This document shows positions 1-49,246 of a DNA stretch of 64,000 bases, piece by piece. The notes beneath the pieces were generated by a model. It was not told the origin of the DNA. It saw only the letters and a list, made by a program, of their open reading frames with translations, and searched no databases. Source of the DNA: Giardia intestinalis. Lineage: Eukaryota. Position numbers and translations under genes: made by a program. Position 1 is the stretch's first letter; the number at the start of each line of letters is the position of its first letter. The stretch lies in the NCBI GenBank assembly GCA_000002435.2, contig CM018793.1; one strand, given 5' to 3'.

Positions 1-3000
1 CGGACCCCATGCGCCGGTGCTCTCCCCCTGGATCGCTCTCGTCCTTCGGTTATGCCCGTGACCCTTAGCTGTCGTGGGGGAGTTACACTCAGAGACAAAT
101 CCTCGGAGGATCTCGAGAGAAGATTGCATCAGTCACTAAAGTTCGTAGAAGGTGTGGATCAACAGAGACAGGCTCATGGGGCACTCTGATCTGGTGGATG
201 CATGGCGTTACTACTGGCCCCCTGTACTAAGTACCATTAGGGTTCTTCATTGCATGACAGAGTGGCAAGTAGAACTCAGAGACGGGTCAGCCCTCCCGTG
301 TCTAGTCAAGGGGAAGCACTGCCCAGACCGTGCTGTCTCCTGAGCTGATGGAGAGGACTCCCATCACCCCTTGAATTACTCTGATGCTACCGCTCTATCG
401 TACCAGAAGCACCCAGGCCTGCGGTACCTTGGTCTGTTGATGTGAGTGACACAGAGCTCTCTGTGTTAGGCTGTCTTCATGAGAGACGAGATCCAGAGGG
501 ACTGTGCTGGTTTGATAGCCAGTGACCAGGCCCATACTCAGCGTGGCCTCGTGTGGGTACCAGGGTAGTTGGGTGCCCATCCACTGATAAGGGAGTCGAA
601 CAACATTTAGCTGCTACTTTCGGGCCAATCTGTGTCTGATCATGGTAGATATGCCGATCGGTGCAAGCGTCCTACCTCTTGATTCATGCATCATGTCACC
701 TGGTAGAGGGCGTGGTATGGTTCTATACACCTCTCTGTGATGCTACTGCGAGAAGTAGATCCTTATTGTGTGGCTACGGAAGCCGAATAGTCTCCGAAGA
801 CACCATATCCTTGTGATCTCCAGCATGGCCCCGCTAGAGCCCAGAGCTCAATGTTCACAGGCCAGTGTAGGAAGTGAAAGTCTAGCAACACACACCTTGA
901 GCGGGAGTGCCACAAACATGCATCGGATACGATCCTGCCAAGAATCCTGTAGGAGGCTGTCCTGGACCTCAGTGGTTGGAGAATCTTCAATAGAAAAATG
1001 GCTACTGTACTCACTCATTCATTGTTGTGAAGGCTTCCTATCGATGTTTATTGATGCGGGCTGGATGACCTCTGTCCACCTGTAGGACTCGACTGCTGTG
1101 CGTTGTAGACGATCGACGAGACTGATATCGCCCTCCATCCGTTGGGTTTATACGAGTGGACGAACTCTGTAGCTGACTGGTTACTATAAGAAAGCCTGCG
1201 CCTATGAGGTCACAGCTTGCATTCGATAGGTAAAAGGCTCTATTGGGCCACAATGTTCCTTGCAGGCTCTGCGGGGCGTGTGGCTACCCCCACGCAACAA
1301 CTGAGATATAGCTCTGCCTAGCTGAGGCTTGCAGGCACGAGCACGGTACAGCTCCTTTCAGTTTATGAAGTCAAACACACTCCAGACGACGGAGATAGAT
1401 AGAGACCCGGATGCATCCAATGCTAGCCTGAGCTGTTCCAATCTTTACTATCCGAGGAATTAACAGGACCACAGAATGGCAGAGGCCTACCTCATGCTCC
1501 TGCTTAGAAGTCTGCGCCTTAGCGAAAGTACGCGTCACGGTCACTGCTGACTACCTGCTGGTGAGTTGTTATCTGCTTTTGAGACCATTAGTTGAGTTGC
1601 TAGTTAAATTGAGAAGCAATGACAGTATTACTCAGACAATGAGCCGAGAAAGCTGATGCTGGTTGTGTACCTCCCACGCTGAGCATACCCACTGTGCAGG
1701 GCAAAGGATCTAATGCCCTAAGTGGTCAGATGAAGCTAAGGCGCTTGTCAGTAACGATATGCATACGGGCTTCAGCCAGAGACTTACGAAGAAACGCTGA
1801 GGAGCCCAAGACCTGCCAGATCTGTATAAGGGACATAACGGATGCCCAGATGATAAATCTATTGACCCTTTTCCTTGGTAGACAGGAGTCTGGCTTGTAG
1901 TGGCCGTCTGCGTGACGTATGCCTTTACAGAACTGATGGAAGTACCCATTGATCTGGAAAGGTCATTAATAAATGGTTGCACGAGATAGGCAAGCAGAGA
2001 ACAGGAGTGGACCACACTATCCTGGCTGATGAGCAATCCAGACTATATAATACGTATACAATCCTTGGCCGAAGTGGAGATGCACCGTAGACTTAGCCAC
2101 GTGAGCTGAGAGCGCTGCTAGCGATCATCTGCCATGAGAAGACGCAGGTGAGAAATCTGTGGACAGCAACCACGCCGACTGGTACCAGCCTGCACAGCAT
2201 GCCTCTACAATAGATCCTCGCCAATATGCGGAGAGAAGGTAAACTTCTTCAACTTCAGACGAGGCAGGCCGCTGATAAATATTACGCTGTTAGGAATATA
2301 TAAAATCAAAAAGCAGCTTTCAACTTATCTGTAGACCCCGCGATCTTTACCACTCGGAGACCAGAGAGGCGCTACAGGCGTCTCTGCTGCAATCCGGGCT
2401 AGTAGCTGGCCTCTCTGACGCCAGTCTTACTTCACTGATTCGCTGGTCACCCTATATTCTCCATGCGGACCGGCTCTCCAGAAACCGTTATGCACGGATA
2501 GTCTTTTGAGTACCCGAATAACATCCTCATCCGCTGAGGTGTGTCACCAAGGACTAGATACCATAAGGTCAACGCAACCAGAGACAGGCCCCCTCGCAGT
2601 CCTGTCCAACACTAGCAGCGAGGATCCAAACGAGTACATAGATAAGTGAGGAGTGTATCATAGCTCAAACCGGTCATCGCACTAAGATCATAACAATCGA
2701 TGTATAGAGTTCTGCTTTTGGCTTATGTGTGGATTTATGTCTCACCTTGAAAGGCAGCAGATCGTTCTATGGCACCTTTCCTAGTGTTCAGTTGTCATTA
2801 CAACTGGTGAAATTGCAACCATAGAGACTGTATGCCTTCCTAGAAGAGTGTCCAGTGCGACTAACTGATATTCTTTATTAACAACAGGCAGGGTAGATAC
2901 TATAGTATCTACACCACCTACTAGGGCGGCGCATGGCCATGCATGCATCAGTAGAGAAGCTGCTGTAATCTCTGCTCAGTCTGTTGGGTAGATGCAGCCC

Positions 3001-5780
3001 CTCATCGCAGCAAACATGGTGGTGGGCAGGTCGCCTGTGTAAGCTAGCTGATCCGTCCATTCTGGTCTAGCTGCGTGCATTTGGAGGCTGTAGTGCACAT
3101 TCATGAAGACAACGCACCGTCTATACATACCATGCCTCGTTCTGTGCTATTCACAGGTCTTAGCGTCTCAGAAGTCAAGGCTAGTGCAGAATGCCCCAAA
3201 CTACCCATCTAGAGGGCCAAAGCTGATACCGCGCATAATACATCATCTTAGGGAGACAATGGCTGCCGTCATTGTTCCGGATTTTTTAGTGTCAGACAAT
3301 CGACCCCACGATGAGTTTACTCTTCGCAGCTTCCGTCTGCATATCGAAGCTGGCTTCTGGCTGCTCAGGCAGCGGATGAGGAGGTTGTACAAAGCGTCAG
3401 TCGCTGGGCTGCCTTCTATCCGCACATGGCCCTGAATGTAGCTCCCACCTATCCGAGACATATGCACTTCTAGAAAGTGATCGGGTAGCATCTAGAGCTG
3501 TTCATGATGGGCATGGTCATTATTCACTTAGCTCTGCCCTTTTCCCAACCATCAGGGGATACCTCCCTAGCTACATGCCCCGAAGTACTACATAATAATA
3601 GCAAAATGGCACTATCACTCTTTAAGCTTCCCTGACCTGTCGGCAGTGTGCCTCCCAACATCCAGTGCGGCACCACCGGATGAATCTATGCGGCTGTGGA
3701 TACCTTACAGCATCGCATTCATCTAGCTCACTGTATACCCTATTCTATCTGGGAGCAACCCAGTCGTGCACAGGAGCCCTTACCTCCCACCCAGGGCCCA
3801 GTCCAATGCTCAGTTGGCTCGGATGCCCTACTGCACCCTGTAAAGCCTCGTTGAGACCATAGATGTGGTGTGCTGCTGGGCGCACCATCCCACGTCGCGC
3901 TGCTATAGAACACTGGTTATCAGGCTGTCCATAGCCCACTACAGGAACTGTAGGACATGACCACACGTAGAGTGCCTGAGTCACTGTGTACGCTGTCCAC
4001 CGACGTGCCCTGGTACCTGCGGATGGAAACGCGTCGCTACGGCCACACGGGTATTTACACGTCCTAAAAGCTCTCATGCCATGCAGTACAGGGTCTGCTA
4101 CTTGGCATGGACCCTTCGATACCGAGACTCTAGAAGAGCATCCCAGGCACCTCCAGTCCTGTTCAGAGAGGAGGCACGCTACGAGAAAACTAGCTATTTC
4201 TCACTATTGTCTGATCTGGCTGGAAGTTCGCATGAAGATTCTCACCACGTGACCAGCACAATCTCCTGTCGTCCAGCCACGGTAACACTTTGGGGTATTA
4301 GAGTGCAGCTCACGTGTTACCTTTATCCCCTCTAGAGAGTCCAGGTTGTGAATGTTCTTGTAGGAGAGAAGCCCGTGACCCGAGGGCAGTTGTTCTTCAT
4401 CAAGGCGTCTTCGACGCACTTGACAATCTGATCCCTGTTAGAGGCCTTCTGGTGGCTGTTGCTCATATATCAACGACCCACCAGTCTGACAAAGCACACC
4501 TCATTTGCTTCACGAGGTGCTCTCGCCTCTTTTGACTGGGGTTCTATAAGAAGGGTCTTTATCATCCCTGAGCATGGCTATGGGGTGGGTGCTGAAAAGG
4601 ATGTCCCTCTCCTCTTCATTCCCATCCCTTCACGCAGTTACGCTCTACACTCGATGTTTGTGTTGCAGTGCACCTGGACGGCTCTCTGACCTCGGTGGGT
4701 TCAGTGCAGAACGAGCATATGCTCGAGTGACTACCATCTGGTGCCACATCAGCACAGAGTGTTTCGTTTTAGCCAGATGTCTCCTACTCGCCATTCTGGT
4801 GCTGAAGCATTTGGGGCAACAGATGATGGGGACTCCCCCAATCCTGGTATCCTCCAGCGTGTGAAACGCCCCCAGGTTCTTAAATGAGGCCTGAATTAGC
4901 TCTATGTCCCGTGTCAAGCTCTCACATGTGCACCTAAGGCTCCTGTTCTTGCTATGGTGTCGGAGCATCTCCCTCGAGAGACCAGCAGCATCCACAGTGT
5001 ATAGGTACGAGTCGGAGTCCATGCGGTCCTCACAAAGCATCAGCAGACGCATGACTCCTATCGGGGCAGTCAGTGACTGGAAGCCCTGCCTCCTCTGGAG
5101 CACAGGATCCGGGGAGAACGGAGCTCCATCACCTGTTCTTGTCTTGTCGATAACGAAGGCCATCTGTTCCAGGTCTTGATTACATAGCTCGCAGTCTACG
5201 TGTCGATTGCTGATCCCTATCGAGGTCTCCCAAGAGCAAGAGCTAGGAGTTGCATCTAAACGCCTCCAGAGGACTTGGAAGGCCTTCTGATCTCTCTCAG
5301 CGTCCTGGGGATGTTGGCGTAGGCGTCATCTGGTGCAGCATGATGTAACACAGCCTGTAAGCTATGGAGGTGTGGAAAGGGAAATGAAATGCCTTATTTG
5401 GCGTATGAGACTCCAGTTGAATGAGCCTGAGGCGGGAGGCTTCCCAGGACGCGGCGTTCGGTGCCTTGCCCGCGGCAAAGCTCTTCAGTCAGGAGGTGCA
5501 GGCGTGTCTTCCATAACTCCTGGCGCCATGGACAATACAATAGAGGCAAGGCGGGCCTCAAAAGGCGAGATAATGCGTTCATGAGCCACTTCCCATTTGA
5601 CGACTAGCCCAGCTGGGGAGAGGGTTCAGTGATAGCGGCAACCGTCTTAGAAGTCCGCCACACGCTTGCTCTTTAGTAGGGAGATCGACTGGGGCGGCGA
5701 GCGCGAGGGCCCTCTTCGCCTGCAGTACCATCATCCCGCCAAGTGTCTGCCGGATCCCGCTTCGAGTCGTTTCTATCGGC

Positions 5781-7817
5781 ATGCGGATCCGGAGGCTGCT
5801 GCAGGTGAGAGGGTCGGGTATCAGGTCGCCGCGGAAAATGGAAAGTGAATGTAAAAAATTACACATGGAGCCTCAAAGATTGTCCTTAGAGACATGGATT
5901 TTTCAGTTAGAGCAAGGGTATGATGAAGATCTTGCTAGTGTAGCACCAGAATATGTCAAGGCCAAAGGAGCTTCCGGGGAATCTAGCTTTTTACTCGCCT
6001 CTAACATGCGCGCATTTCGAGCTTTGAAATGCCTTCTTACTGCTCCACAGACTGCTCTATCACAAGATGAGCTAGAAACTATTCTCCGTACTACTATTTT
6101 CGAGGTGAATAATCGACTTGCCTTCAATTGTCTTCGTATTGTACTTGAGATAATAACTAACCAGGCTGAAGAACATGGAATCACTCTTCACTCGCATACT
6201 AGCGTACTGCAGGCACTCAAGATGGCAGAGACGCATGGGAACTATCGGGCGATGTTCTACCTTGCTTCCATTTTGGATGATGCACCTGCACTACTTCGAT
6301 ATTCCTATCTGTTCACAAAAGACCCACTGAGCTTACCAGTTCTTAAAAACTATGACTCAAAAGCCCAGTCTGTAGAGAAGGCTGAGGATCATCTCAACAA
6401 TTCTAAGTATCTCGCTAACGTACTTGAAAAGCTAGAACAGCCCGAGGATACTTCTACTGCCTATCAGCTTTCTCTTATTAATAGTGTATTATCGTTTTTG
6501 CAATCTATAATTGCGTGTCAGCAACCTTCTACCATATTCCCCAGAGTTGAAGAAGCCATTCATCAGCTACTGCAACGTGATTTGCCCGACACCCTAGGAA
6601 GAACCATCTTCTCTATAGTCTTATATTGCATACAAAGCCTGCATAAACGAGATAATATAGATAATAGTCAAATCACCACTACTAGCAACATCATGGATCC
6701 CCATATTTCCGTTGATACATTGCTTCAGTCTGACTCATTAAAAGATCAGCCATTCTCATGCACTGAGTCCTTCATCAATAAGAGAAGAGATGACAAGGGC
6801 ATCTTGTCTTACATAAAGACCCTTAACACTAAAATCTATACACATGAAGCAGAAATTCTACAATTACGGAAACAACTGGAGACGGTTAGATATAGACACC
6901 GGGAAGAGGCCGAGATCAATGGAAAGTTAAATACAGCCCTTTCTGAACAGTTAAAAGAGGAGATAGACAGGGCCATGATGCTGGAAAAGCAATCGTTGGA
7001 GAAAGATAAGGTGATTTTATCTATGCGTGAACTCTTAAAAGGCTGGATGAGGAACTTAAATACAGTACAGAGTAATGCAGATAGTAAAGCTAGTTGTGAA
7101 CTACTTCAAGATGGCAAGAATCTGTTGGGATACAATAGTGATGAGTTATTCGGCACCGGTACTAGTTTGAAGGAAAGTGCTGTGTTAGCAGAGAAGTACA
7201 TTGACTCTATGACGAGTAATCTTGCAGGTATTAACGATTCGCTGAAGAAACTTGACAATGAGAAGCAGTCCCTCTCTATGATGCAGAAGCACGTTCTTGG
7301 TCTGGAATATGAACAGGAGCAAATACTGAACAATAGAGATGACCTTAATACAGAGCTACTTGAAGCGGAGCTACGACACTATAGAAGGCTCTATTTCAGT
7401 CTAAAGGCACACTATGAAGCGATGGTAAACCTTTTACCAGGGGACGCAGCTGAATTGGCGAGCGATGTCCTAAATAACTTAATATTAGAAGGTAATGAAA
7501 GACATCTGGAATATTCTAGAGGTAGCAAAGACACTAGTGTTGAGCCGAGCGATGAACTAGGAGCATCTGGTCAATTATTTATGGATTGCAACTCTGCATG
7601 GAACGAACAAAACTCCACGTGGCGTAGATACATGAGTGATGGCGAATACCAACGCTATGTTGAACGTGCCGTGACTCCAACGGGCCTGTCCACAATCTTC
7701 CGGCATCAGACTGCGCCCGGCCCAGATTCTAAATCTGCCCAAATCCGGCCTTGGAGTGCAGTACTGCGTGGAGAGAACAAGGAAAGGAATAAAAGCGCTT
7801 CCAAAAGCTTCCACTGA
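5781..7817 (+). CDS. Hypothetical coiled-coil protein (678 aa as given). The start is uncertain and in-frame ATGs at 5838 and 5865 are better-placed candidates
   Basis: It is a long uninterrupted ORF with heptad-rich, E/K/Q/L-rich central and C-terminal regions. The ATG at 5865 sits in the AT-rich context 'gtaaaaaattacacATG' typical of diplomonad initiators. I recognise no enzymatic motif. Confidence 0.6.
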   Translation: MRIRRLLQVRGSGIRSPRKMESECKKLHMEPQRLSLETWIFQLEQGYDEDLASVAPEYVKAKGASGESSFLLASNMRAFRALKCLLTAPQTALSQDELETILRTTIFEVNNRLAFNCLRIVLEIITNQAEEHGITLHSHTSVLQALKMAETHGNYRAMFYLASILDDAPALLRYSYLFTKDPLSLPVLKNYDSKAQSVEKAEDHLNNSKYLANVLEKLEQPEDTSTAYQLSLINSVLSFLQSIIACQQPSTIFPRVEEAIHQLLQRDLPDTLGRTIFSIVLYCIQSLHKRDNIDNSQITTTSNIMDPHISVDTLLQSDSLKDQPFSCTESFINKRRDDKGILSYIKTLNTKIYTHEAEILQLRKQLETVRYRHREEAEINGKLNTALSEQLKEEIDRAMMLEKQSLEKDKVILSMRELLKGWMRNLNTVQSNADSKASCELLQDGKNLLGYNSDELFGTGTSLKESAVLAEKYIDSMTSNLAGINDSLKKLDNEKQSLSMMQKHVLGLEYEQEQILNNRDDLNTELLEAELRHYRRLYFSLKAHYEAMVNLLPGDAAELASDVLNNLILEGNERHLEYSRGSKDTSVEPSDELGASGQLFMDCNSAWNEQNSTWRRYMSDGEYQRYVERAVTPTGLSTIFRHQTAPGPDSKSAQIRPWSAVLRGENKERNKSASKSFH

Positions 7818-7853
7818 TTGAGTGGTACGTCTTCGAGTAGATTTTTTAAAGCC

Positions 7854-8909
7854 ATGAACTGTGAGGGCTGTGGTACTGGGACACCGATGATTAGGCACTC
7901 CATGACCCTTAAGCGCCTCTGCAGGAAGTGCTTTCTCCGTGCAATCGAAGATGAAGTTCAGCGAACGGTGGAGATGCACAGCCTGGTCCGTCCGGGCGAG
8001 AGCATCGCTCTTGGAGTGAGCGGAGGAAAAGACTCGAGTGTTATGCTTCATATTCTACACACCCTGCGGCTTCGTTGTCAGGATGTCTACGATGGTGTTC
8101 GCTTTGTTATGGTTGCAGTCAACGAAGGAATCCAAGGCTATCGCGGCGAGTCGCTAGCGTGTCTTCAGCGCCTCCATAAAAAGTATCCGTATGAGCTGGA
8201 GATAGTGGGCTTTGAAGAGCGATACGGACGTACGCTAGACCAACTTGTCAACACTGTGAACGGAAATTCATGCACTGATACATTTGCCCCACTTAAGGCC
8301 GATCTGGAGGACGTTAACGACACGGGCCGGCCACAGCCAACGGCGAAGACAGCAACTGCCTGCTCGTTCTGTGGTATCCTCCGACGAAATTCTCTTTCTT
8401 ACGGGAGTCTCCAGACACAATGTACAAAGGTGGCTACCGGGCACAATGCTGACGACAATGCCGAGACCGTTCTACTGAACTTAATCAGAGGTGACGCTGC
8501 AAAGCTAGTAAGGTGCAGCGAGCCATTATCTGACTTGAATCAAGGGGTGGCACGCATAAAGCCCCTCTGCAATATAGCACAGCGAGACATTGTCATATAC
8601 GCCCACCTACAACGCCTGGACTACTTTAGTGTGGAGTGTCCTTATGCAACAACGGCACTACGCGGTAAGCCAAGAAGCTTCCTAACCAACCTTTGTACCA
8701 GACCAGCGTACAGCGACGCGGCTCTTCGTATAATTCGGTCAACTCGGAAGCTGCGCCTTAAGACCACACATGAGACCCAGAAGCTCACTAGTCTTCATCT
8801 GTGCCCCTCGTGTCAGAGTCCTGTCTCCACAACTCGCTGCCAGTGCTGTGACATACGCACGGCAAAGACTGGGGACGACCTTAAGCGAGCCGCCAAGTGC
8901 AGGCCATAA
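7854..8909 (+). CDS. CTU1: Cytoplasmic tRNA 2-thiolation protein 1 (Ctu1/Ncs6/ATPBD3 family PP-loop ATPase)
   Basis: It has an N-terminal CxxC...CxxC zinc finger and the PP-loop SGGKDS. Blocks [29 protein letters not shown] and [18 protein letters not shown] align with human CTU1 blocks [29 protein letters not shown] and LYAHFRRLDYFSEECVYA. A C-terminal CPSC...CQCC finger is present. The ORF track begins at a TTG at 7818, and the first ATG is at 7854. Confidence 0.85.
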   Translation: [351 protein letters not shown]

Positions 8910-9039
8910 TCTAATCAGGGCGTCTAATTTACATTCGATTCACAATTGTTAACAGCTTACTCAAATGTTTACTATGGTTAGTATGATTAATATACTTAGT
9001 CTACGATCTTATGAATCAAGTAAACGCCGTCTTGTAAAA

Positions 9040-26901: not shown

Positions 26902-26979
26902 CCAAGCAAACCCAAGTAAATTGGGCAAATCAGATTAATTTTATTTTTGTCTTTCGGTTTCAAACGAAGAGAACAGGGA

Positions 26980-27681
26980 ATGGAGCAAGTTGTTCTTTTT
27001 GATTCGCCGTCCATTAAGATACTGAATCCAGAGACACCCTTCCTAGAGCCTCTTTCATTAGAAATTAAGCTTCATCTTCTCGAGAAACTTTCAAGTCCTT
27101 TAGTTTGGTCCGTAGAATATGTTGACGGAGTTTCGCCGGAACAGTCGCTTATTCAGGTCCCAATAGGCCCACCTACTGCACAGAAATTGAAGTTTGTCCT
27201 CACTGTGCCACCTCCTACCCCCTCTGCCATCTCCGTCTCCGGCCTCCTCACCTCTGCAGTGTATCGTATTACCATACAATATAAAGAGGCCTATGTCTGG
27301 AGTACTGCCTTATATTTGTCGTGTACCGATACTTCTGGAAAACACAGACCACCAGTTGACGAGGAACTTTCAGGAGACTCTATCCATACAACCGAACCGG
27401 ATACGGATCATTCACAAGATGATGAGGTTGCGAGCCATCTGCTTGAAGATGAGTCTGAGGACAGCGAAGATCAGACTAATGGTAGCTCTGAAACTGTTGA
27501 CGACAGTTCCTCGCAAGGCTCTCGTCCTGATGCAGAGCCCGAAATGAAGAAGGTTCCTCCACAACCATTGCAAATGGGATCTGAAGATATGTTTTCCACA
27601 TTTGTCAAGACAGTTACCCTTCTATCGCGTGAAACGAAACAAGGCATTTACACTTTAGAGCCTAACGAGACCTTCTCTTAG
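26980..27681 (+). CDS. ASF1: ASF1-like histone chaperone with an acidic C-terminal tail
   Basis: The N-terminal roughly 130 aa follow the ASF1 core pattern. 'ILNPETPFLEPLSLEIKLHLLEKLSSPLVWSVEYVDG' matches '[37 protein letters not shown]', and 'VPIGPPTAQKLKFVLTVPPPTP' matches 'VLVGPVPAGRHMFVFQADAPNP'. The C-terminus is a D/E/S-rich tail, as in fungal Asf1. The ORF track starts at a TTG at 26947, and the first ATG is at 26980. Confidence 0.5.
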   Translation: MEQVVLFDSPSIKILNPETPFLEPLSLEIKLHLLEKLSSPLVWSVEYVDGVSPEQSLIQVPIGPPTAQKLKFVLTVPPPTPSAISVSGLLTSAVYRITIQYKEAYVWSTALYLSCTDTSGKHRPPVDEELSGDSIHTTEPDTDHSQDDEVASHLLEDESEDSEDQTNGSSETVDDSSSQGSRPDAEPEMKKVPPQPLQMGSEDMFSTFVKTVTLLSRETKQGIYTLEPNETFS

Positions 27682-27692
27682 CTTCTAAGTCT

Positions 27693-29333
27693 TTAATTAA
27701 CCATTTCAGTGCAAGTTTTGGCCAGTATTTCCTTTACGTCGCACCCTTTAGTACCAAAATCGCGTTCTAGACGATCCTTGAACCTGCTGCAAAAGCCCTT
27801 GTAATCTTTGTCGTCGTCTTTCTGGGTGTTAATGGCACATTCTTTATCGTAGTCCCTGGCCTTTTCATAGTCAGATAGCAAGTGGGAGGTCTGCTTGGCG
27901 AGGTCCCACGAAAAATCAGGGTTTGTTTTGTCAAATGTGGTTGGGACAGTCATGTGATATGCATCTGTAGCTTGCCACACTACAGAGTTGCATTTGAAGC
28001 CACTGCCGAATGCTATTTGCCACACCTTGTGGCCGGGCTTAACTCCACTTTGGCATTCGTGATAGGCAAGCTCATACCAAACAGAACTACTGGATGTGTT
28101 ACCATACCGGTAAAGAGTGGCTCTTGAGGCAGCCATCTGTTGCTCACTGAGGTGCAGCAGTCGTTCCATTTCATCCAGTACTGCACGACCACCTGTGTGA
28201 AAGCACAGGTGGTTAAATATTTTACCCACATTAGGCATAAAGGGAGCAGCATCTTTTCTGCTTGTCTTCCGAACGTTACTGAGCATTTGATGCCACAAGA
28301 ACCGGCATATTTCCGTTACTGGCATGAATTTCTTAAAGACTATCTTCATATTGTCATGCAGCGCCTTTCCTGCACACCGCGGAACGCTTTTATTGATGAT
28401 GACCCCAATATTGCCCTTTTGGTCAGCCGTTTGGTATACACATCTGTAACTGTCGTCGCTCCCCCCGTGGTGAGTCCTCACGAGTCCCAGAAGCTTGTAC
28501 TTTGCATATATGGTTTTTGGGTCCCTTGCGTCGCTTCTAGATCCCTTTATCCTATATGATGGATTGTTGGAGAATAAAACAGCAGAGCAGCCCATCCGAA
28601 ATAGCACGTTCTGCATCAGCATGCTGCGCTCTTCTCCGCGATAAAAATTCTGTGTCATGTTCTCTGTTGATACTAGCAGTATAAGTCCTGGAGAATCATG
28701 CATTATGGCTCTGATAAGATCGACTCCAATAATAGAAGCAGAGCACCCCATGCCACCCAAAGAAAAGCTTCTTACATTCTTGTTCAGCCCGTACTTGTTG
28801 ACGATCATAGCGGAGAAGCTGGGTGTAGGACAAAAGAGGCTACAGTTAGTTACTACCCCCGAAATGGCCTTAGGGTCTATCCCTGTTTTCTCCAGGAGGG
28901 CGTCAATTGCGCCGAATATGACCAGCTCGGCCTCTTCTCTTGCAGTCTTAATAGTACAGTTGAAATCTCTCAGGGATCTTGGAATATGTGTAGACGGGCC
29001 TAAGCCTGTCCCCTCACATATCCGACGCATGAACTTCATGGACTCAGCTGGGTAATGAAAGCTTTCAAGCGCCAAGTTCAGTAGCTGCTCATTTGTCGTC
29101 TTGTAGATCTCCTCGTCGGGCTGAAATACTGCGAAATCTAGCAGATAAAGTGCCCTGGCATCCGCTGCGGCTGCGCGCATGTAAGCCACTGTTATCAGCA
29201 GCACTGTAGTTACACATAGGCAGCACAACACCAGGGGGCTGCTTTGGAGCTCAGGGATGACCCTGTAGTTTATACCATCAGCAGCCCAGTCCCATGCATA
29301 CTCAGCTGCATGAAGCCATGACCAGCCAGCCAT
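27693..29333 (-). CDS. FAE1-type 3-ketoacyl-CoA synthase (very-long-chain fatty acid elongase condensing enzyme, type III PKS superfamily)
   Basis: The alignment with plant KCS/FAE1 runs the full length. It includes the N-terminal TM, 'ALYLLDFAVFQP', 'FMRRICEGTGLGPSTHIP', the active-site region 'SFSLGGMGCSASIIGVDLIRAIM', 'LVSTENMTQNFYRGEERSMLMQNVLFRMGCSAVLFSN', 'HTGGRAVLDEMERLLHLSEQQMAASRATLYRYGNTSSSSVWYELAY' and 'WQIAFGSGFKCNSVVW'. There is a C-terminal extension of about 60 aa. Confidence 0.85.
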   Translation of the reverse strand: MAGWSWLHAAEYAWDWAADGINYRVIPELQSSPLVLCCLCVTTVLLITVAYMRAAAADARALYLLDFAVFQPDEEIYKTTNEQLLNLALESFHYPAESMKFMRRICEGTGLGPSTHIPRSLRDFNCTIKTAREEAELVIFGAIDALLEKTGIDPKAISGVVTNCSLFCPTPSFSAMIVNKYGLNKNVRSFSLGGMGCSASIIGVDLIRAIMHDSPGLILLVSTENMTQNFYRGEERSMLMQNVLFRMGCSAVLFSNNPSYRIKGSRSDARDPKTIYAKYKLLGLVRTHHGGSDDSYRCVYQTADQKGNIGVIINKSVPRCAGKALHDNMKIVFKKFMPVTEICRFLWHQMLSNVRKTSRKDAAPFMPNVGKIFNHLCFHTGGRAVLDEMERLLHLSEQQMAASRATLYRYGNTSSSSVWYELAYHECQSGVKPGHKVWQIAFGSGFKCNSVVWQATDAYHMTVPTTFDKTNPDFSWDLAKQTSHLLSDYEKARDYDKECAINTQKDDDKDYKGFCSRFKDRLERDFGTKGCDVKEILAKTCTEMVN

Positions 29334-29441
29334 TTTTAACGGTCATGTGTACCATCCTCTGTAGACCAAGTATACTGTACGGTAGCATGTAAACCATCAC
29401 AACCAAATCCAAGCAAATTTAAAGAAAAGAAAAGACACATT

Positions 29442-32519: not shown

Positions 32520-32933
32520 ATGACACGCTCCATTTGCTTTCTCGGTGCAAGCCCCGCCGTTGTCAAGCGACTAGAAGATACTCTCAAAGAACATTCTATT
32601 TCGGGACAAGTTGCGCTCCTAACAGATACACCGCGGCTTCTACAAGGTAAGGTCTTCTTGTGTGTTACACTTGCGGATGTATTTGCGTTGCGGCAGACTT
32701 GCGAATGTATATCGGACCCAATGGTGTTGACAGCTCTCTGTCTCTCTGACTTCGATACCCTTGCACAGGAGTTTCCGTCTAGAGAGACGTTTGAGCTCCT
32801 GTCGCTGCACATAGATTCAGATGGGGAGTTAGACATAAGTGGATTTATCAAAGAAGCAAACAGTCGTTTGGGCCATCGGATTCTCTGTGACACCATTGCA
32901 ACCCAAGGGCTCCTCAGGCGGGCAGTTCGCTGA
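32520..32933 (+). CDS. Hypothetical small protein (137 aa). The coding strand is ambiguous because of an overlapping minus-strand ORF at 32486..32896
   Basis: The ORF starts with an ATG and is divergent from Rpp30, 30 bp from its start. Its composition is balanced and globular-looking. The competing minus-strand ORF is S/R-rich and less protein-like. Confidence 0.3.
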   Translation: MTRSICFLGASPAVVKRLEDTLKEHSISGQVALLTDTPRLLQGKVFLCVTLADVFALRQTCECISDPMVLTALCLSDFDTLAQEFPSRETFELLSLHIDSDGELDISGFIKEANSRLGHRILCDTIATQGLLRRAVR

Positions 32934-32988
32934 ACCTAAAGAAATTGGGAGGGCTGGGGAAAAGCAAGTAAATAAAGCAGGTAAATCC

Positions 32989-33747
32989 ATGAATGAAACG
33001 GCGTGGTTTAGAGCTGCAACGAAGGGGAACCTTTACATCCTCAAGGAGAGCGTTGTGCAATGGAGGGGGCTTCAAGACACGGATGGGAACAGCGCTATCC
33101 ACTATGCAGCAAAGGCCAACCGGCTTGATGCAGTGAAGTACCTGGCCCCCATGGAGCTTATGATCCGTAACAGACAAGGCCAGACCCCGCTTGATGTAGC
33201 ACGCGAAGCCGGCAGCAAGGAGGTCGCGGCGTTTTTGCGTGATGCAATGAGTGAAACATCCCCTATCAGAATGCAATTTGATTCTCCAATCTGGTTCACG
33301 GCAGCAGCAAACGGAGAGCTCTCCGTTCTCCAAGAAAATCTACGCCGCTTCAAGGGGTATAAAGCACCTGATGGGGAATGGAGGGGGCACACAGCTCTCA
33401 TGATCACGGCAGTGACTGGTAACTTGGCCGCTGCACAGCTCCTGACTACTGTAGAGGCTGGGATAAGTGGACCAGATGGGAAAACGGCTCTAATGCTTGC
33501 CTGTGAGGCCAATTATCCAGAAATAGCTGCTCTTCTGATTCCCCTAGAGGCAGGCCTGGTGGACCACTACGGCTGGTTCGCGCTTCTCTATGCAATAGAC
33601 GGCGCCTGCATAAAGGCTATTCCACCTCTGTATCCCATTGAAGGCAAGATGCGCAACGAGTTTGGTTTATCGGTCTTAGACATAGCCAGGCAGTACAAGC
33701 AAAATGAGGCAACAAAGATTCTAGAAGAGCTGGCCAAAACAAACTGA
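32989..33747 (+). CDS. Ankyrin-repeat protein (about 253 aa from the ATG at 32989, and the open frame extends upstream to 32839)
   Basis: Consecutive ankyrin repeats are present: DGNSAIHYAAKANRLDAVKYL, QGQTPLDVAREAGSKEVAAFL, RGHTALMITAVTGNLAAAQLL and DGKTALMLACEANYPEIAALL. The start is uncertain. Confidence 0.7.
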   Translation: MNETAWFRAATKGNLYILKESVVQWRGLQDTDGNSAIHYAAKANRLDAVKYLAPMELMIRNRQGQTPLDVAREAGSKEVAAFLRDAMSETSPIRMQFDSPIWFTAAANGELSVLQENLRRFKGYKAPDGEWRGHTALMITAVTGNLAAAQLLTTVEAGISGPDGKTALMLACEANYPEIAALLIPLEAGLVDHYGWFALLYAIDGACIKAIPPLYPIEGKMRNEFGLSVLDIARQYKQNEATKILEELAKTN

Positions 33748-45741: not shown

Positions 45742-47968
45742 TTTAAGATGATTATAGAATGATCCGGGAACCCCTCCTGCAACGAAAGCTTAGCCATCCT
45801 ATTTATCCAGGGGGCATTAGAAATCAAGAGATACATTTAACTGATCATTGCGTGTATTGAACAACTCATACTAATTTCTTTGTCCCCAGTAGCTGACCCT
45901 AATCATCCCAGTAGAGCCCCACATCAGGTATGGATCTTGCGTAGTGCTGAGCCATATCCCCTATGTCAATAGATGCTGCTTCGGTGGCTCCAATTTGAAG
46001 GAGGGAGGCCCTTGTCACTGTATAGATTTGTGTCAAGTGAAAATTATCGTGGGCTTCTTGGAAGACCCGACGGCTCGCTATATTCTGCCATCTCTATGCT
46101 TGCCATGGCTACTGGAAATACCGATGCATGTGTGCAACTCATAAGAGTGAGCTCTGCTTGATTATTTGCTCAAACTGTCCAACCCATGATAATAGGACTG
46201 CTACCAGAGGAGACCATGAACGAAACCCTAGTACTCACGAGGGCACTCTCAGATGAAGTGGTTTGTATGCGCTCTTTAGCCCTCGGAAGCTCAGTGCACA
46301 TGGTTACTCATCCTTTGACACCAGACTCGCCCACAAGACGCACTGGCCACACTATAACACCCTTGGTGGTGAGCCCAGATAAGGGTGCGTGCGCTGATAG
46401 TATTGTATGTCAAAAGACCTTCCTAGTAGCAATGTGCTGGTCACGGTCAAGAAGACATTACCATTTTGATGCATCGAGGGTTGATCGATTCGTTAAGACA
46501 CTGTCGGTATTCTACTCGTATAATCGGGACCCATCTCATCTACAAAGGTTCTACTTGTGTGCACGCTCACCCGGAAACCAGAATCGAGACCTGGCAGGCG
46601 TCACTCGCCCTGCAGCGATTTGGTACGACAGCAAGGGTGGACCTCGGATTGACGGGGGATGCTTCCCGGCGAGTCCCAGGTGCACTGCAGGTGGCGATCT
46701 CAACGTGGATGAGTGCCCAGTCGGTGAAGTCATGGCTCACAGGGAGGCGCCTGGACTACCCACAAGGATTGGGGAGATCCAAGACTGCAGTGTCCGTTGG
46801 TAAGACACACAGTAGGAACGCCTTGTGAGATAGACCAGAAGTCCTCCGCCCAGTCGTGGCTAGTACCTGCAGCTAGTAGCCCCGTGGGCTCGTCCCGGAC
46901 GCTCTTGGTCAAACGGATAGCCGATGCGGTCGTGTCAGAGGTCAGTCTCCGCCTCCACATGGCAGAACAGTGGGAACAGTCGTCTATAGGCAGGGACCTT
47001 CTCTTGAACATAATGCAGCTAACACTGTGCCACAGTACCCATGACTGACTTGGTGGGCTACACTATGGCAATACTTCGCAGAGCCCCAGTTCGCAAGTCA
47101 TAAGGCGATTGCCAATTCAGACCGAGACATCCTTTGTGTACGCTGGGCCTATCTGCAGTATAACGAGCAGCGTATCTGTTTGACCAAGAGGCTGCCGGCG
47201 TGGATATGCACTGCCGTATGCCCAGGCCTATAGTTGAATGACAGACCGTTCAGGTGGGGGATCAGCGATTGCCTTGACGTGCAAGAAGAGCCTCCATGCG
47301 ACATCGTTCCACAACGGTATGCGTAGGATCTGCGGCGAATGGCACCACCACCAAAGCGGACGAGGCGCTGTGCTATCGAGAAAGGAGGCTCATATCTTCT
47401 TATGACCAAAGAGCCTAGCAACAACATTTACACAGCAATGCATACTATCGCAATGGACTTTCCTTGTGGGCAGTGTTAAAATGTTCATGTGCCATGTCGT
47501 GAGGCCATGGCGTATTTTGCATCTCCTGCGCCAACGTCATCGCTGCCTATTAGTGCAGAACCTGGCTATCTTGGAAGGCCTCCTCAAGTTCGTCTATGCC
47601 TTTCTCGAAGAAGGTCCTTGGTAGTGGAGCTCGCTTTATGAGTGCTGTCTACCTCCTAGCAGAGCAAATTGACGGATGATGCACATGCGGGCTATACACT
47701 TTTCCGAAGCTTGTAGGACACGGTGTTATGGCGGCTTTAACGGTACACAAGCCACGCCCGCCTGCAACAGATGGCCTCGATAGGATGCTCTTGAGTAGGG
47801 CACCAGTCAACTAGTCTAGTCCATGGGCACCGCTGAAAAGCACCAGTGTCTTCTTGTTCTACACTGCGGTGTGCTCACAGCGATACGCTGAAGGATGCGT
47901 GCGGCCCGGTGGAGGCGGCCTCTACTGCTATCTGATTGCCCGTTAGTGTGAGCGTGATTCGACGGGCA

Positions 47969-49246
47969 ATGTTGTACTTGGCAGGTTTAGCATTCGCTTA
48001 CTTGGCGCTTGCCGATCCAAAATCGTGCACCAACTCTCAAAATTGTGCATCTGGAGATAACTGTCTAGATGTCAATATGAATGGTTCTCCTACAGAGGTT
48101 TGCACAAAATGCGAGCCAAACAACGTCCCGATCGACGGGGCGTGCAAGCCGGCCGCAGACAACACGAACAGCTGCGTAACCTCGGATAGCGGGGCCGGCG
48201 GGGTTTGCGCGTCGTGCCAGGGGAGCACCTACCTCTACAAGGGCGGGTGCTACGCCGCGTGCCCTCAGGGAACACCAAACTCTGAGACTAACACATGCGA
48301 TGGAGTCCCCGCCCCTGATTGCAATCTCGCCAACTGCGAGGTGTGCTCGGAGGACAAGCAGAAGTGCACAAAGTGCCAAAGTAACTACTTCCTCACTCCA
48401 GAGAAGAACGCTTGCTTGGCGTCTTGTCCGGCCGGGTCGTACGCGGTTGGGCAAACGTGCGCGCCCTGCGACCCCTCCTGTGCGGAGTGCAGCGGGGCCG
48501 GCGCTTCCAAGTGCACGGCCTGTCCCGCCGGGAAGATGCTGAGGTACGCCGACGAGAGCAAGCTTAATGAGGGCGGCCAGTGCGTGGAGCAATGCGTGGA
48601 GGGCCCGGAGTGCGAGACGTGCGGCCTAACAATTGGAGGTACCAAGTACTGCTCGAAGTGCAAGGGGAACAACGTGCCGCTCAATGGCGTCTGCACAAGC
48701 AATGCGGCCAGGACTCGGTTCTGCACCACTGTCGCTAACGGTGCTTGCACGGTCTGCGCCGCCGGATACTTCATCCAGGAGGGCGGATGCTACAAGACTG
48801 ACAGGCTCCCCGGGAAAAGCATCTGCACAACGCCCACTGGGGATGGAAAATGCCAAACGTGTGCGAATGGCTTGACAGCTGTCTCGAACATGTGTCCATT
48901 ATGCGACTCCACTTGTGCGACATGCACCGTGGCCAATCAACCCGATAAGTGCAGCACGTGTCCACCTGGCCGTTACTTGGACGCCAGTAAAGCATGCAAA
49001 CTGTGTACAGAGACAAGCGGTAGCATCCAGGGCGTCGCTAACTGCGCGAGCTGCGCTCCTCCAACTGGTAATAGTGGTTCTGTCATCTGCTACGTCAAGA
49101 CGGATGGCACTGACAACGGCGGAAGCACGAATAAGAGCGGCCTCAGCACAGGCGCTATAGCGGGCATCTCCGTCACGGCGGTTGTCGTCGTGGCTGGCCT
49201 TGTGAGCTTCCTCTGCTGGTGGTTCCTCTGTAGGGGCAAGGCGTGA
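47969..49246 (+). CDS. VSP: Variant-specific surface protein (VSP)
   Basis: The signal peptide is MLYLAGLAFAYLALA. There are about 28 CxxC motifs and the GGCY motif. There is a single C-terminal TM (AIAGISVTAVVVVAGLVSFLCWWFL) followed by the invariant cytoplasmic tail CRGKA and a stop. The ORF track starts at a TTG at 47936, and the first ATG is at 47969. Confidence 0.95.
   Translation: MLYLAGLAFAYLALADPKSCTNSQNCASGDNCLDVNMNGSPTEVCTKCEPNNVPIDGACKPAADNTNSCVTSDSGAGGVCASCQGSTYLYKGGCYAACPQGTPNSETNTCDGVPAPDCNLANCEVCSEDKQKCTKCQSNYFLTPEKNACLASCPAGSYAVGQTCAPCDPSCAECSGAGASKCTACPAGKMLRYADESKLNEGGQCVEQCVEGPECETCGLTIGGTKYCSKCKGNNVPLNGVCTSNAARTRFCTTVANGACTVCAAGYFIQEGGCYKTDRLPGKSICTTPTGDGKCQTCANGLTAVSNMCPLCDSTCATCTVANQPDKCSTCPPGRYLDASKACKLCTETSGSIQGVANCASCAPPTGNSGSVICYVKTDGTDNGGSTNKSGLSTGAIAGISVTAVVVVAGLVSFLCWWFLCRGKA

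What the first reader, a model, noticed from the sequence alone, without database searches (positions are those of the whole stretch)
27693..29333. FAE1-type 3-ketoacyl-CoA synthase in a diplomonad genome
FAE1/KCS condensing enzymes (type III PKS superfamily) are characteristic of plants and a limited set of protists. Giardia is regarded as largely dependent on host lipids, with minimal de novo fatty-acid machinery. This full-length, motif-complete KCS therefore suggests either retained very-long-chain elongation capacity or a laterally acquired gene. It includes the GMGCSA active-site Cys region, the HTGG(R) block and the GNTSSSS block, plus a unique roughly 60-aa C-terminal extension.
Basis: partly seen in the sequence, partly recalled or inferred. 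Interest (0 to 1): 0.6.

Follow-up and report, generated by a model that had tools for sequence, protein, structure and literature searches.

The report
Giardia's known fatty-acid elongase gene

Summary
Window 27693..29333 (-) is an intact 546-aa ORF with a strong FAE1_CUT1_RppA match (E 8.8e-89). The AlphaFold model superposes on solved plant KCS6/CER6 structures.

It is not new. The protein is identical to XP_001708101.1/A8BBZ1, "3-ketoacyl-CoA synthase" of Giardia intestinalis WB. Giardia papers call it fatty acid elongase 1 (gFAELO, gene 92729), and they already state that Giardia keeps fatty-acid elongation while lacking de novo synthesis.

Homologues occur in G. muris, Spironucleus, Hexamita (at least 9 copies), Kipferlia and Carpediemonas. 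The gene tree follows the species tree (diplomonads 96-98% bootstrap, Fornicata 72-83%). Gene neighbourhood is conserved with G. muris. GC3 and codon usage are typical of the window, and dN/dS is about 0.03-0.04. The deep origin is unresolved (backbone bootstrap 0-12%).

The C-terminal extension is real but not unique. It is shared by all sampled diplomonads, predicted to be helical, under purifying selection and matches no Pfam family. That is the only modestly new detail.

The parts
27693..29333 (-). Complete intronless coding sequence (546 aa plus TAA stop) of Giardia intestinalis 3-ketoacyl-CoA synthase, also called fatty acid elongase 1
   Evidence: ORF list. Exact match to XP_001708101.1/A8BBZ1. 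Pfam match. Solved plant KCS structures at E about 1e-104.
29172..29240 (-). Single strongly hydrophobic N-terminal segment (aa 32-54, SPLVLCCLCVTTVLLITVAYMRA), the presumed ER membrane anchor; an amphipathic helix (aa 6-31) precedes it
   Evidence: Kyte-Doolittle mean above 1.5 over 19-aa windows starting at aa 28-39, peak 2.53 for aa 34-52. The AlphaFold model has helices 6-31 and 33-59. Membrane insertion is inferred.
28290..29159 (-). FAE1_CUT1_RppA condensing-enzyme domain (aa 59-348)
   Evidence: Pfam PF08392, E 8.8e-89.
28743..28745 (-). Codon for Cys197, the catalytic nucleophile in the GMGCSA motif
   Evidence: Invariant in 60 KCS sequences. It aligns to the Cys-to-Ala position of the inactive maize CER6 C222A mutant: 9uu4 reads GMGASA and wild-type 9uu3 reads GMGCSA.
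28503..28565 (-). Surface-loop insertion (aa 257-277, NPSYRIKGSRSDARDPKTIYA); present in the four G. intestinalis-group sequences, shorter in G. muris, gapped in other KCS
   Evidence: Alignment A1. This is the lowest-confidence internal block of the model, mean pLDDT 70 for aa 261-270.
27972..28211 (-). ACP_syn_III_C-type C-terminal half of the thiolase fold (aa 375-454); it carries His379 (28197-28199, HTGGR) and Asn412 (28098-28100, GNTSSSS)
   Evidence: Pfam PF08541 and PF02797. His379 and Asn412 are invariant in 60 sequences. Coordinates checked.
27696..27929 (-). Diplomonad-specific C-terminal extension (aa 469-546): charged and predicted to be helical
   Evidence: Tail lengths are 86-139 aa in diplomonads, 63-64 aa in Carpediemonas and a median of 38 aa elsewhere. 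Model helices 476-481, 488-492, 495-517, 519-526 and 533-545, block pLDDT 74-97. No Pfam match. The tail HMM hits only diplomonad KCS among 382 sequences. pN 0.13-0.17 against pS 0.55-0.92.
29334..29340 (-). A-rich tract directly upstream of the start codon (GTTAAAA followed by ATG), resembling the short AT-rich initiator context of Giardia genes
   Evidence: Sequence read directly. The promoter role is inferred from my general knowledge of Giardia transcription and was not tested.

Best explanation
This is the single-copy, ER-membrane-anchored, FAE1-type 3-ketoacyl-CoA synthase of Giardia intestinalis, known as gFAELO or 'fatty acid elongase 1'. It is the condensing, chain-length-determining enzyme of the microsomal fatty-acid elongation cycle. 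Inferred mechanism, by homology: a scavenged fatty acid is activated to acyl-CoA and transferred to Cys197; malonyl-CoA is decarboxylated with the help of His379 and Asn412; Claisen condensation then yields a 3-ketoacyl-CoA two carbons longer. Separate ketoacyl-CoA reductase, dehydratase and enoyl-CoA reductase enzymes complete the cycle. The gene has been inherited vertically at least since the common ancestor of Fornicata. Diplomonads later added a helical C-terminal module of unknown role, possibly regulation or partner binding. Shown here: sequence, domains, catalytic triad, fold, orthologue distribution, synteny and selection. Inferred: enzyme activity, membrane location, substrate range and the role of the tail.
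For: Family identity: Pfam FAE1_CUT1_RppA at E 8.8e-89, plus ACP_syn_III_C. Solved plant KCS structures match at E 1e-99 to 3e-104, against about 1e-10 for chalcone synthases. The AlphaFold model (mean pLDDT 89.7) matches maize CER6 and CsKCS6 with target-normalised TM-scores of 0.85-0.91.

Catalytic residues: the triad is invariant in 60 sequences, and Cys197 aligns to the residue mutated in the inactive CER6 C222A structure.

Membrane anchor: one hydrophobic N-terminal segment.

Selection: core dN/dS is about 0.03-0.04 between Giardia lineages.

Existing annotation and expression: exact match to XP_001708101.1, annotated 3-ketoacyl-CoA synthase. Transcript up-regulation of 'fatty acid elongase 1 (gFAELO) (92729)' is reported in metronidazole-resistant lines (PMC5913674).

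Pathway context: Giardia is described as lacking de novo fatty-acid synthesis but retaining elongation (PMC4510421). Retortamonads and Giardia are both described as having the elongation suite, with a transcarboxylase as the proposed malonyl-CoA source (PMC7985675).

Vertical descent: the Fornicata clade mirrors the species tree, with diplomonads at 96-98% and Fornicata at 72-83% bootstrap. The ASF1 neighbour is conserved in other Giardia lineages, and the proteasome-alpha gene, the large ORF and the ORF at 32839-33747 lie close to the KCS gene in G. muris too. GC3 z = 0.26 and codon usage is 6th closest of 26 ORFs to the window pool.
Against: No biochemical assay of this protein was found in the searchable literature, so substrate range and product chain lengths are unknown. 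Only one clearly hydrophobic N-terminal segment is present; plant KCS are generally described as having two (my general knowledge). I did not verify the other three enzymes of the cycle in the Giardia genome and rely on papers for that. The tree is distance-based (NJ). Fornicate sequences sit on long branches, and backbone support is 0-12%, so nothing can be said about the origin before Fornicata. Single-copy status is inferred only from the absence of a second Giardia-labelled paralogue among the hits.
Confidence: 0.9

Rival explanations
1. The gene entered the stem of Fornicata (or of Metamonada) by ancient lateral transfer from a green or red alga or another KCS-bearing eukaryote, and has been vertical since. 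This is the scenario Mi-ichi and colleagues propose for Amoebozoa. It concerns only the origin before Fornicata and is compatible with the function and the within-Fornicata history given in the best explanation.
For: KCS is most diverse in plants and algae, and the Entamoeba paper proposes exactly such an ancient transfer for Amoebozoa (PMC11340893). The fornicate clade has no supported sister; the nearest group, two amoebozoans plus an anaerobic ciliate, has only 12% bootstrap. I found no report of a KCS in Trichomonas.
Against: The fornicate clade is not nested within any plant or algal clade. KCS is present in several eukaryotic supergroups: Archaeplastida, Amoebozoa, a ciliate and Fornicata. 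That fits ancient presence with losses equally well. No compositional trace remains.
Confidence: 0.3
2. The gene was acquired recently by lateral transfer, specifically in Giardia or in diplomonads, from a plant, alga or bacterium.
For: The top-scoring named hits outside diplomonads are plants at 43-49% identity. Two nominally bacterial loci matched.
Against: Orthologues occur throughout Fornicata in species-tree order. Microsynteny with G. muris is conserved. GC3 and codon usage are typical of the window. Plant hits dominate only because there are so many plant sequences. The 'Flavobacteriaceae' contig carries the eukaryote-specific Brix and RED-like genes next to its KCS, so it is mis-binned eukaryotic DNA. 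The Mesorhizobium hit is a 395-bp contig at 0.88x coverage.
Confidence: 0.03
3. It is a membrane-tethered type III polyketide synthase that makes alkylpyrones, alkylresorcinols or similar lipids, rather than an elongase condensing enzyme.
For: The Pfam family FAE1_CUT1_RppA covers both KCS and some type III PKS, and the Cys-His-Asn triad and fold are shared. Chal_sti_synt_C scores 38 bits, above its cut-off of 27.
Against: Identity to plant KCS is 38-49% across the whole core, against 15-19% to CHS-type enzymes. The E-value gap is about 1e-104 against 1e-10. Chal_sti_synt_N falls below its cut-off, 18.5 against 27 bits. The protein has the N-terminal anchor typical of KCS. The close homologues in Entamoeba have been shown genetically to elongate fatty acids (PMC11340893).
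Confidence: 0.04
4. It is a decaying or catalytically dead relic with no current role, given that Giardia scavenges host lipids.
For: The protein was not detected in one proteomic dataset (PMC5913674). Giardia depends on exogenous fatty acids (PMC4510421).
Against: The ORF is intact in all Giardia lineages sampled. The triad is invariant. Purifying selection is strong, with core dN/dS about 0.03-0.04 and pN 0.06-0.08 against pS 0.66-0.82. The transcript is detected and regulated.
Confidence: 0.03

Closest known systems
Plant FAE1/KCS 3-ketoacyl-CoA synthases (EC 2.3.1.199), e.g. maize CER6 (PDB 9uu3/9uu4) and CsKCS6 (9kqg/9lgy)
   Same: Same two Pfam domains and the same Cys-His-Asn triad. 38-49% identity over the core. 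Same fold, with target-normalised TM-scores of 0.85-0.91. N-terminal membrane anchor followed by a cytosolic thiolase-fold domain.
   Different: One clear hydrophobic segment rather than the two generally described for plant KCS (my general knowledge). A Giardia-lineage loop insertion at aa 257-277. A helical C-terminal extension of about 60-78 aa that the plant enzymes lack. No CER2/GL2-type partner is known in Giardia. Single copy, whereas plants have large families.
Entamoeba histolytica fatty acid elongases EhFAE1-4 and EhFAE3B (KCS type; Mi-ichi et al. 2024, PMC11340893)
   Same: A KCS-type condensing enzyme in a non-photosynthetic, microaerophilic gut parasite that cannot make fatty acids de novo. 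The Entamoeba enzymes were shown genetically to elongate acyl chains, and K3-group herbicides inhibit them.
   Different: They fall in a different part of the KCS tree and do not group with Fornicata. Entamoeba has five paralogues and Giardia apparently one. They lack the diplomonad C-terminal module. The Giardia enzyme has not been characterised.
KCS of other Fornicata: G. muris TNJ29168.1, Spironucleus salmonicida, Hexamita inflata (at least 9 copies), Kipferlia bialata GIQ87794.1 and Carpediemonas membranifera (2 copies)
   Same: Orthologues or co-orthologues forming one clade (72-83% bootstrap). The diplomonad members share the C-terminal module.
   Different: Copy number differs: one in Giardia and at least nine in free-living Hexamita. 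Carpediemonas has only a 63-64 aa tail that the module HMM does not match. The Kipferlia sequence is partial.
ELO (GNS1/SUR4) elongases of animals, fungi, kinetoplastids and apicomplexans
   Same: They catalyse the same step, condensing acyl-CoA with malonyl-CoA in the ER elongation cycle. Some Giardia papers loosely call the Giardia gene 'ELO' (PMC4510421).
   Different: An unrelated protein family. No ELO-family Pfam match was found here. The Giardia 'elongase' is a thiolase-fold KCS, not a multi-pass ELO protein.

Membership tests
FAE1-type 3-ketoacyl-CoA synthase (KCS) | FAE1_CUT1_RppA (PF08392) N-terminal condensing domain | tested here: met
   aa 59-348, E 8.8e-89, 298 bits against a cut-off of 27.
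FAE1-type 3-ketoacyl-CoA synthase (KCS) | C-terminal ACP_syn_III_C / Chal_sti_synt_C half of the thiolase fold | tested here: met
   PF08541 at 37.7 bits (cut-off 26.6) and PF02797 at 38 bits (cut-off 27), aa 375-454.
FAE1-type 3-ketoacyl-CoA synthase (KCS) | Catalytic Cys-His-Asn triad | tested here: met
   Cys197, His379 and Asn412 are invariant in 60 KCS sequences. Cys197 aligns to the mutated residue of the inactive maize CER6 C222A structure.
FAE1-type 3-ketoacyl-CoA synthase (KCS) | Overall fold equal to experimentally solved KCS structures | tested here: met
   Model mean pLDDT 89.7. Foldseek top six hits are CER6/KCS6 chains, E 5e-44 to 4e-40, target-normalised TM 0.85-0.91. CHS-type enzymes follow at E about 1e-22.
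FAE1-type 3-ketoacyl-CoA synthase (KCS) | N-terminal transmembrane anchor (ER membrane protein) | tested here: inconclusive
   One strongly hydrophobic segment at aa 32-54, plus an amphipathic helix at aa 6-31. Plant KCS are usually described with two transmembrane helices (my general knowledge). Topology and localisation cannot be tested here.
FAE1-type 3-ketoacyl-CoA synthase (KCS) | Groups with KCS rather than with soluble type III PKS in sequence comparison | tested here: met
   E about 1e-104 to KCS against 1e-10 to CHS/STS. All 120 best database hits are KCS-type proteins.
FAE1-type 3-ketoacyl-CoA synthase (KCS) | Condenses malonyl-CoA with long-chain acyl-CoA; partner reductases and dehydratase present in the genome | not testable with these tools
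   Activity needs biochemistry. The presence of the rest of the cycle in Giardia is taken from PMC7985675 and was not checked here.
ELO (GNS1/SUR4) elongase family | ELO-family Pfam domain in a multi-pass membrane protein | tested here: not met
   No ELO-family match in the Pfam scan at E up to 0.01. Only one hydrophobic segment.
Soluble chalcone/stilbene-synthase-type type III PKS | Chal_sti_synt_N domain above threshold; soluble protein without a membrane anchor | tested here: not met
   PF00195 scores 18.5 bits against a cut-off of 27. An N-terminal hydrophobic anchor is present. Identity to CHS-type structures is 15-19%.

The most novel reading that the evidence does not exclude
The C-terminal helical module of about 80 aa is a diplomonad innovation. 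It may control the enzyme, for example by docking the other elongase-cycle enzymes or by taking the role that CER2/GL2-type partners play for plant KCS6. Because this KCS seems to be Giardia's only elongation condensing enzyme and has no human counterpart, it might be a target for K3-class herbicides (flufenacet, cafenstrole), as shown for Entamoeba. My evidence shows only that the module exists, is restricted to diplomonads within the sequences sampled, is confidently predicted as helical and is under purifying selection. Its function and the drug sensitivity are untested.
Probability: 0.2. Interest if true: 0.45.

Novelty: already known. Interest (0 to 1): 0.15.

Why it matters
It matters little as a discovery. 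The gene is in RefSeq and UniProt with the correct name, has a name in the Giardia lipid literature (gFAELO), and Giardia's retained elongation capacity is a standard statement.

Three smaller points have some value:
- The Giardia 'elongase' is KCS-type, not ELO-type, although some papers label it ELO.
- Its history is vertical within Fornicata, which removes it from the list of candidate recent transfers.
- A diplomonad-specific C-terminal module exists that I did not find described. Together with the Entamoeba precedent for herbicide inhibition of KCS, this makes the enzyme a reasonable but unproven drug-target candidate.

Tried and rejected
1. Recent lateral transfer. I tested it by GC3 and codon usage, by orthologue distribution and NJ trees under four distance corrections, and by synteny. 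It is rejected.

2. Bacterial donor. The genome-contig scan gave two loci. L001, labelled a Flavobacteriaceae MAG, has Brix and RED-like eukaryotic neighbours, so it is mis-binned eukaryotic DNA. L002 is a 395-bp contig at 0.88x coverage, probably plant contamination. The scan relied on two peptide patterns, so distant bacterial relatives could have been missed.

3. Known domain in the C-terminal tail. There is no Pfam hit even at E up to 10.

4. Global profile search with the tail alone. It returned only one Hexamita-like KCS fragment (P0382) and missed the known positives, so it says nothing about absence elsewhere. A local hmmsearch over the 382 fetched proteins hit only diplomonad KCS.

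5. dN/dS. Synonymous sites are saturated in most Giardia pairs (pS 0.55-0.92), so ratios could be computed for only some pairs. The raw pN and pS values are given instead.

6. Yichoy et al. 2011 (PMC3132189), which I recall as the source of the name gFAELO, is not held in the library.

7. Searches for a Trichomonas KCS or a Giardia ELO/GNS1 gene in the literature found nothing relevant.

8. The supplementary tables of the retortamonad paper are not held.
Full report
OBSERVATION. Window 27693..29333 on the minus strand is an uninterrupted ORF of 546 codons, with an ATG start and a TAA stop. Pfam finds FAE1_CUT1_RppA at aa 59-348 (E 8.8e-89, 298 bits), ACP_syn_III_C at aa 375-454 and Chal_sti_synt_C. 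Chal_sti_synt_N falls below its cut-off.

IDENTITY OF THE SOURCE AND OF THE GENE. An exact-sequence look-up shows that the protein is identical to XP_001708101.1 / KAE8305206.1 / UniProt A8BBZ1, named '3-ketoacyl-CoA synthase' of Giardia intestinalis WB clone C6. The orthologues in strain P15 and in ATCC 50581 are named 'Fatty acid elongase 1'. A proteomics paper refers to 'fatty acid elongase 1 (gFAELO) (92729)' and reports that its transcript is up-regulated in metronidazole-resistant lines (PMC5913674). I infer from the matching product names that 92729 is this gene. [quoted passage not shown] Fussy et al. list ketoacyl-CoA synthase within a fatty-acid elongation suite of retortamonads 'similar to Giardia', and they suggest the Giardia-type transcarboxylase as the source of malonyl-CoA (PMC7985675). 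Both the gene and its biological reading are therefore already known.

IS IT A FUNCTIONAL KCS? The best solved-structure relatives are plant 3-ketoacyl-CoA synthases (9lgy, 9kqg, 9uu3, 9uu4) at E 3e-104 to 1e-99. Chalcone and stilbene synthases follow at about 1e-10. In an alignment of 60 KCS sequences, Cys197, His379 and Asn412 are invariant. Cys197 aligns to the residue that is Ala in the deposited 'inactive C222A' maize CER6 structure: 9uu4 reads GMGASA and the wild-type 9uu3 reads GMGCSA. An AlphaFold2 model built on that alignment has mean pLDDT 89.7 and pTM 0.86. Foldseek places it on CER6/KCS6 chains with target-normalised TM-scores of 0.85-0.91, and type III PKS structures follow about 20 orders of magnitude behind in E-value. 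One strongly hydrophobic segment at aa 32-54 follows an amphipathic helix, consistent with a membrane anchor. Between Giardia lineages the catalytic core has pN 0.06-0.08 against pS 0.66-0.82, giving dN/dS of about 0.03-0.04 where it can be calculated. All sequence-level criteria for an active KCS are met. The activity itself remains an inference from homology, strengthened by the genetic demonstration that the Entamoeba homologues elongate fatty acids (PMC11340893).

LATERAL OR VERTICAL?

Distribution. Named homologues occur in G. intestinalis assemblage B (85% identity), G. muris (53%), Spironucleus salmonicida (42%), Hexamita inflata (at least nine paralogues, 37-41%), Kipferlia bialata and Carpediemonas membranifera (two copies). 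There are also several unnamed environmental relatives.

Tree. I built a neighbour-joining tree of 126 near-full-length sequences over 365 core columns, drawn from an unbiased search of 1.84 billion cluster representatives plus named sequences. It recovers Giardia (100% bootstrap), Giardia plus two environmental sequences (90%), diplomonads (96%) and Fornicata (78%), in the order expected from the species tree. Under three other distance corrections, support is 96-98% for diplomonads and 72-83% for Fornicata.

Synteny. The convergent ASF1-like neighbour is conserved in assemblage B and in another Giardia lineage. In G. muris, the proteasome-alpha gene, the adjacent large ORF and the homologue of window ORF 32839-33747 lie within a few kb on either side of the KCS gene, as they do here.

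Composition. GC3 is 0.518 against a window mean of 0.500 (sd 0.069, z = 0.26). Codon usage is the sixth closest of 26 ORFs to the pooled remainder.

Bacteria. A scan of 185,579 bacterial and archaeal species genomes gave two loci. One, labelled a Flavobacteriaceae MAG, carries Brix and RED-like genes beside its KCS and is clearly eukaryotic DNA. The other is a 395-bp contig at 0.88x coverage.

Taken together, a Giardia- or diplomonad-specific acquisition is rejected. Beyond Fornicata the backbone has 0-12% support. The nominal sister group is two amoebozoans plus an anaerobic ciliate, at 12%. Ancient presence with losses and an ancient transfer into the fornicate or metamonad stem therefore cannot be told apart with these data. 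The claim that KCS is confined to plants and a few protists is too narrow: Sappinia, Stygamoeba, Entamoeba and the ciliate Muranothrix carry it, and Dictyostelium and Mastigamoeba are reported to (PMC11340893).

THE C-TERMINAL EXTENSION. After the last core motif (GSGFK), diplomonad KCS proteins have 86-139 residues, Carpediemonas has 63-64, and the comparison set of 262 other sequences has a median of 38. That comparison set inadvertently included about 25 unlabelled Giardia cluster members, which raises its upper percentiles but hardly moves the median. The diplomonad tails align with a shared pattern, F-D..(N/D)P(D/E)(F/Y)..., D-Y-(D/E), an acidic stretch, then (Y/W/F)..F..(R/K)(F/Y)..R. 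Only one column is invariant. A profile of the tail hits only diplomonad KCS among the 382 proteins fetched, and it does not hit Carpediemonas or Kipferlia. The tail has no Pfam match. The model predicts five helices with block pLDDT of 74-97. Between Giardia lineages the tail has pN 0.13-0.17 against pS 0.55-0.92, giving dN/dS of about 0.10-0.15 where calculable. That is clear purifying selection, though 3-4 times weaker than on the core. I did not find the module described in the papers I could search. Its function is unknown; partner docking or regulation is speculation. A global database search with the tail profile failed to return even the known positives and is uninformative.

MECHANISM (shown versus inferred). 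Shown here: the domain architecture, triad, fold, membrane-anchor-like segment, purifying selection and orthology. Inferred from the established KCS mechanism (my general knowledge): the acyl-CoA primer acylates Cys197; His379 and Asn412 promote malonyl-CoA decarboxylation and stabilise the enolate; condensation releases a 3-ketoacyl-CoA, which a reductase, a dehydratase and an enoyl reductase then process at the ER. Taken from papers and not verified here: that those three enzymes and a malonyl-CoA source exist in Giardia.

CONTEXT. The neighbouring genes are ordinary core eukaryotic genes: an ASF1 histone chaperone, a RabGAP-TBC protein, a proteasome alpha subunit, a ThiF/E1-like enzyme, RNase P p30 and an ankyrin protein. 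A variant-specific surface protein gene lies about 19 kb away. The start codon sits in an A-rich context (GTTAAAA followed by ATG), and the stop codon is 11 bp from the stop of the convergent ASF1-like ORF. Both are in keeping with the compact Giardia genome (my general knowledge).

VERDICT. The gene is already annotated and discussed in the literature, so the novelty class is 'already known' and the interest is low. The one small addition is the diplomonad-specific, selectively constrained C-terminal helical module. There is also a practical clarification: Giardia's 'elongase' is a KCS, not an ELO protein. Given the Entamoeba precedent, that makes K3-herbicide sensitivity worth testing.

Noticed in passing
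L001 (contig CAWIGH010000001.1, labelled 'uncultured Flavobacteriaceae bacterium' MAG), 1-7197: This 1.09-Mb 'bacterial' contig carries a KCS gene (2854-4335) flanked by a Brix-domain gene, a RED-like splicing-factor gene, an E1 dehydrogenase and a thioredoxin. At least this end of the contig is eukaryotic DNA mis-binned or mis-assembled into a bacterial MAG.
   Followed up: partly
L002 (NZ_RZRU01000069.1, Mesorhizobium sp. assembly), 1-395: A 395-bp contig at 0.88x coverage encodes a KCS fragment 55% identical to the query. It is probably host-plant contamination of a rhizobial assembly rather than a bacterial KCS.
   Followed up: no
L004 (JGI metagenome 3300010163) 1194-3200 and L005 (Logan SRR14944320) 6922-9015: Two environmental KCS genes (P0009, 668 aa; P0008, 697 aa) are sister to the genus Giardia (80-96% bootstrap). 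They carry the diplomonad C-terminal module, an extra tail (132-139 aa after GSGFK) and an insertion of about 50 aa near aa 213-215. Both have a TatD_DNase gene downstream. They probably come from an unsequenced Giardia-related diplomonad.
   Followed up: partly
L007 (ERR3333378) and L008 (SRR17450158): Two unnamed Giardia lineages (P0003 and P0004) are 80-81% identical to the WB protein and 88% identical to each other over the core. They are about as divergent as assemblage B, so they may be other G. duodenalis assemblages or species present only in raw-read assemblies.
   Followed up: no
window 47936-49246 (+) and 54828-58604 (-): These two ORFs are compositional outliers in the window (GC3 0.688 and 0.687, against a mean of 0.50). 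The first is a Giardia variant-specific surface protein (Pfam VSP, E 7e-104). The second (1258 aa) has no Pfam match above cut-off.
   Followed up: partly
window 27681-27693: The KCS gene and the convergent ASF1-like ORF (26947-27681) end only 11 bp apart, so their 3' UTRs must overlap. The same arrangement, with gaps of 9 bp and 7 bp, is seen in assemblage B and in another Giardia lineage.
   Followed up: partly
Hexamita inflata proteins P0014, P0023, P0059, P0149-P0154: Free-living Hexamita has at least nine KCS paralogues in two subclades, Carpediemonas has two, and Giardia and Spironucleus appear to have one each. This suggests copy-number reduction in the parasitic lineages.
   Followed up: no
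window 28503-28565 (aa 257-277): A surface-loop insertion (NPSYRIKGSRSDARDPKTIYA) is present in the four G. intestinalis-group sequences, shorter in G. muris and gapped in other KCS. It is the lowest-confidence internal block of the model (pLDDT about 70).
   Followed up: no
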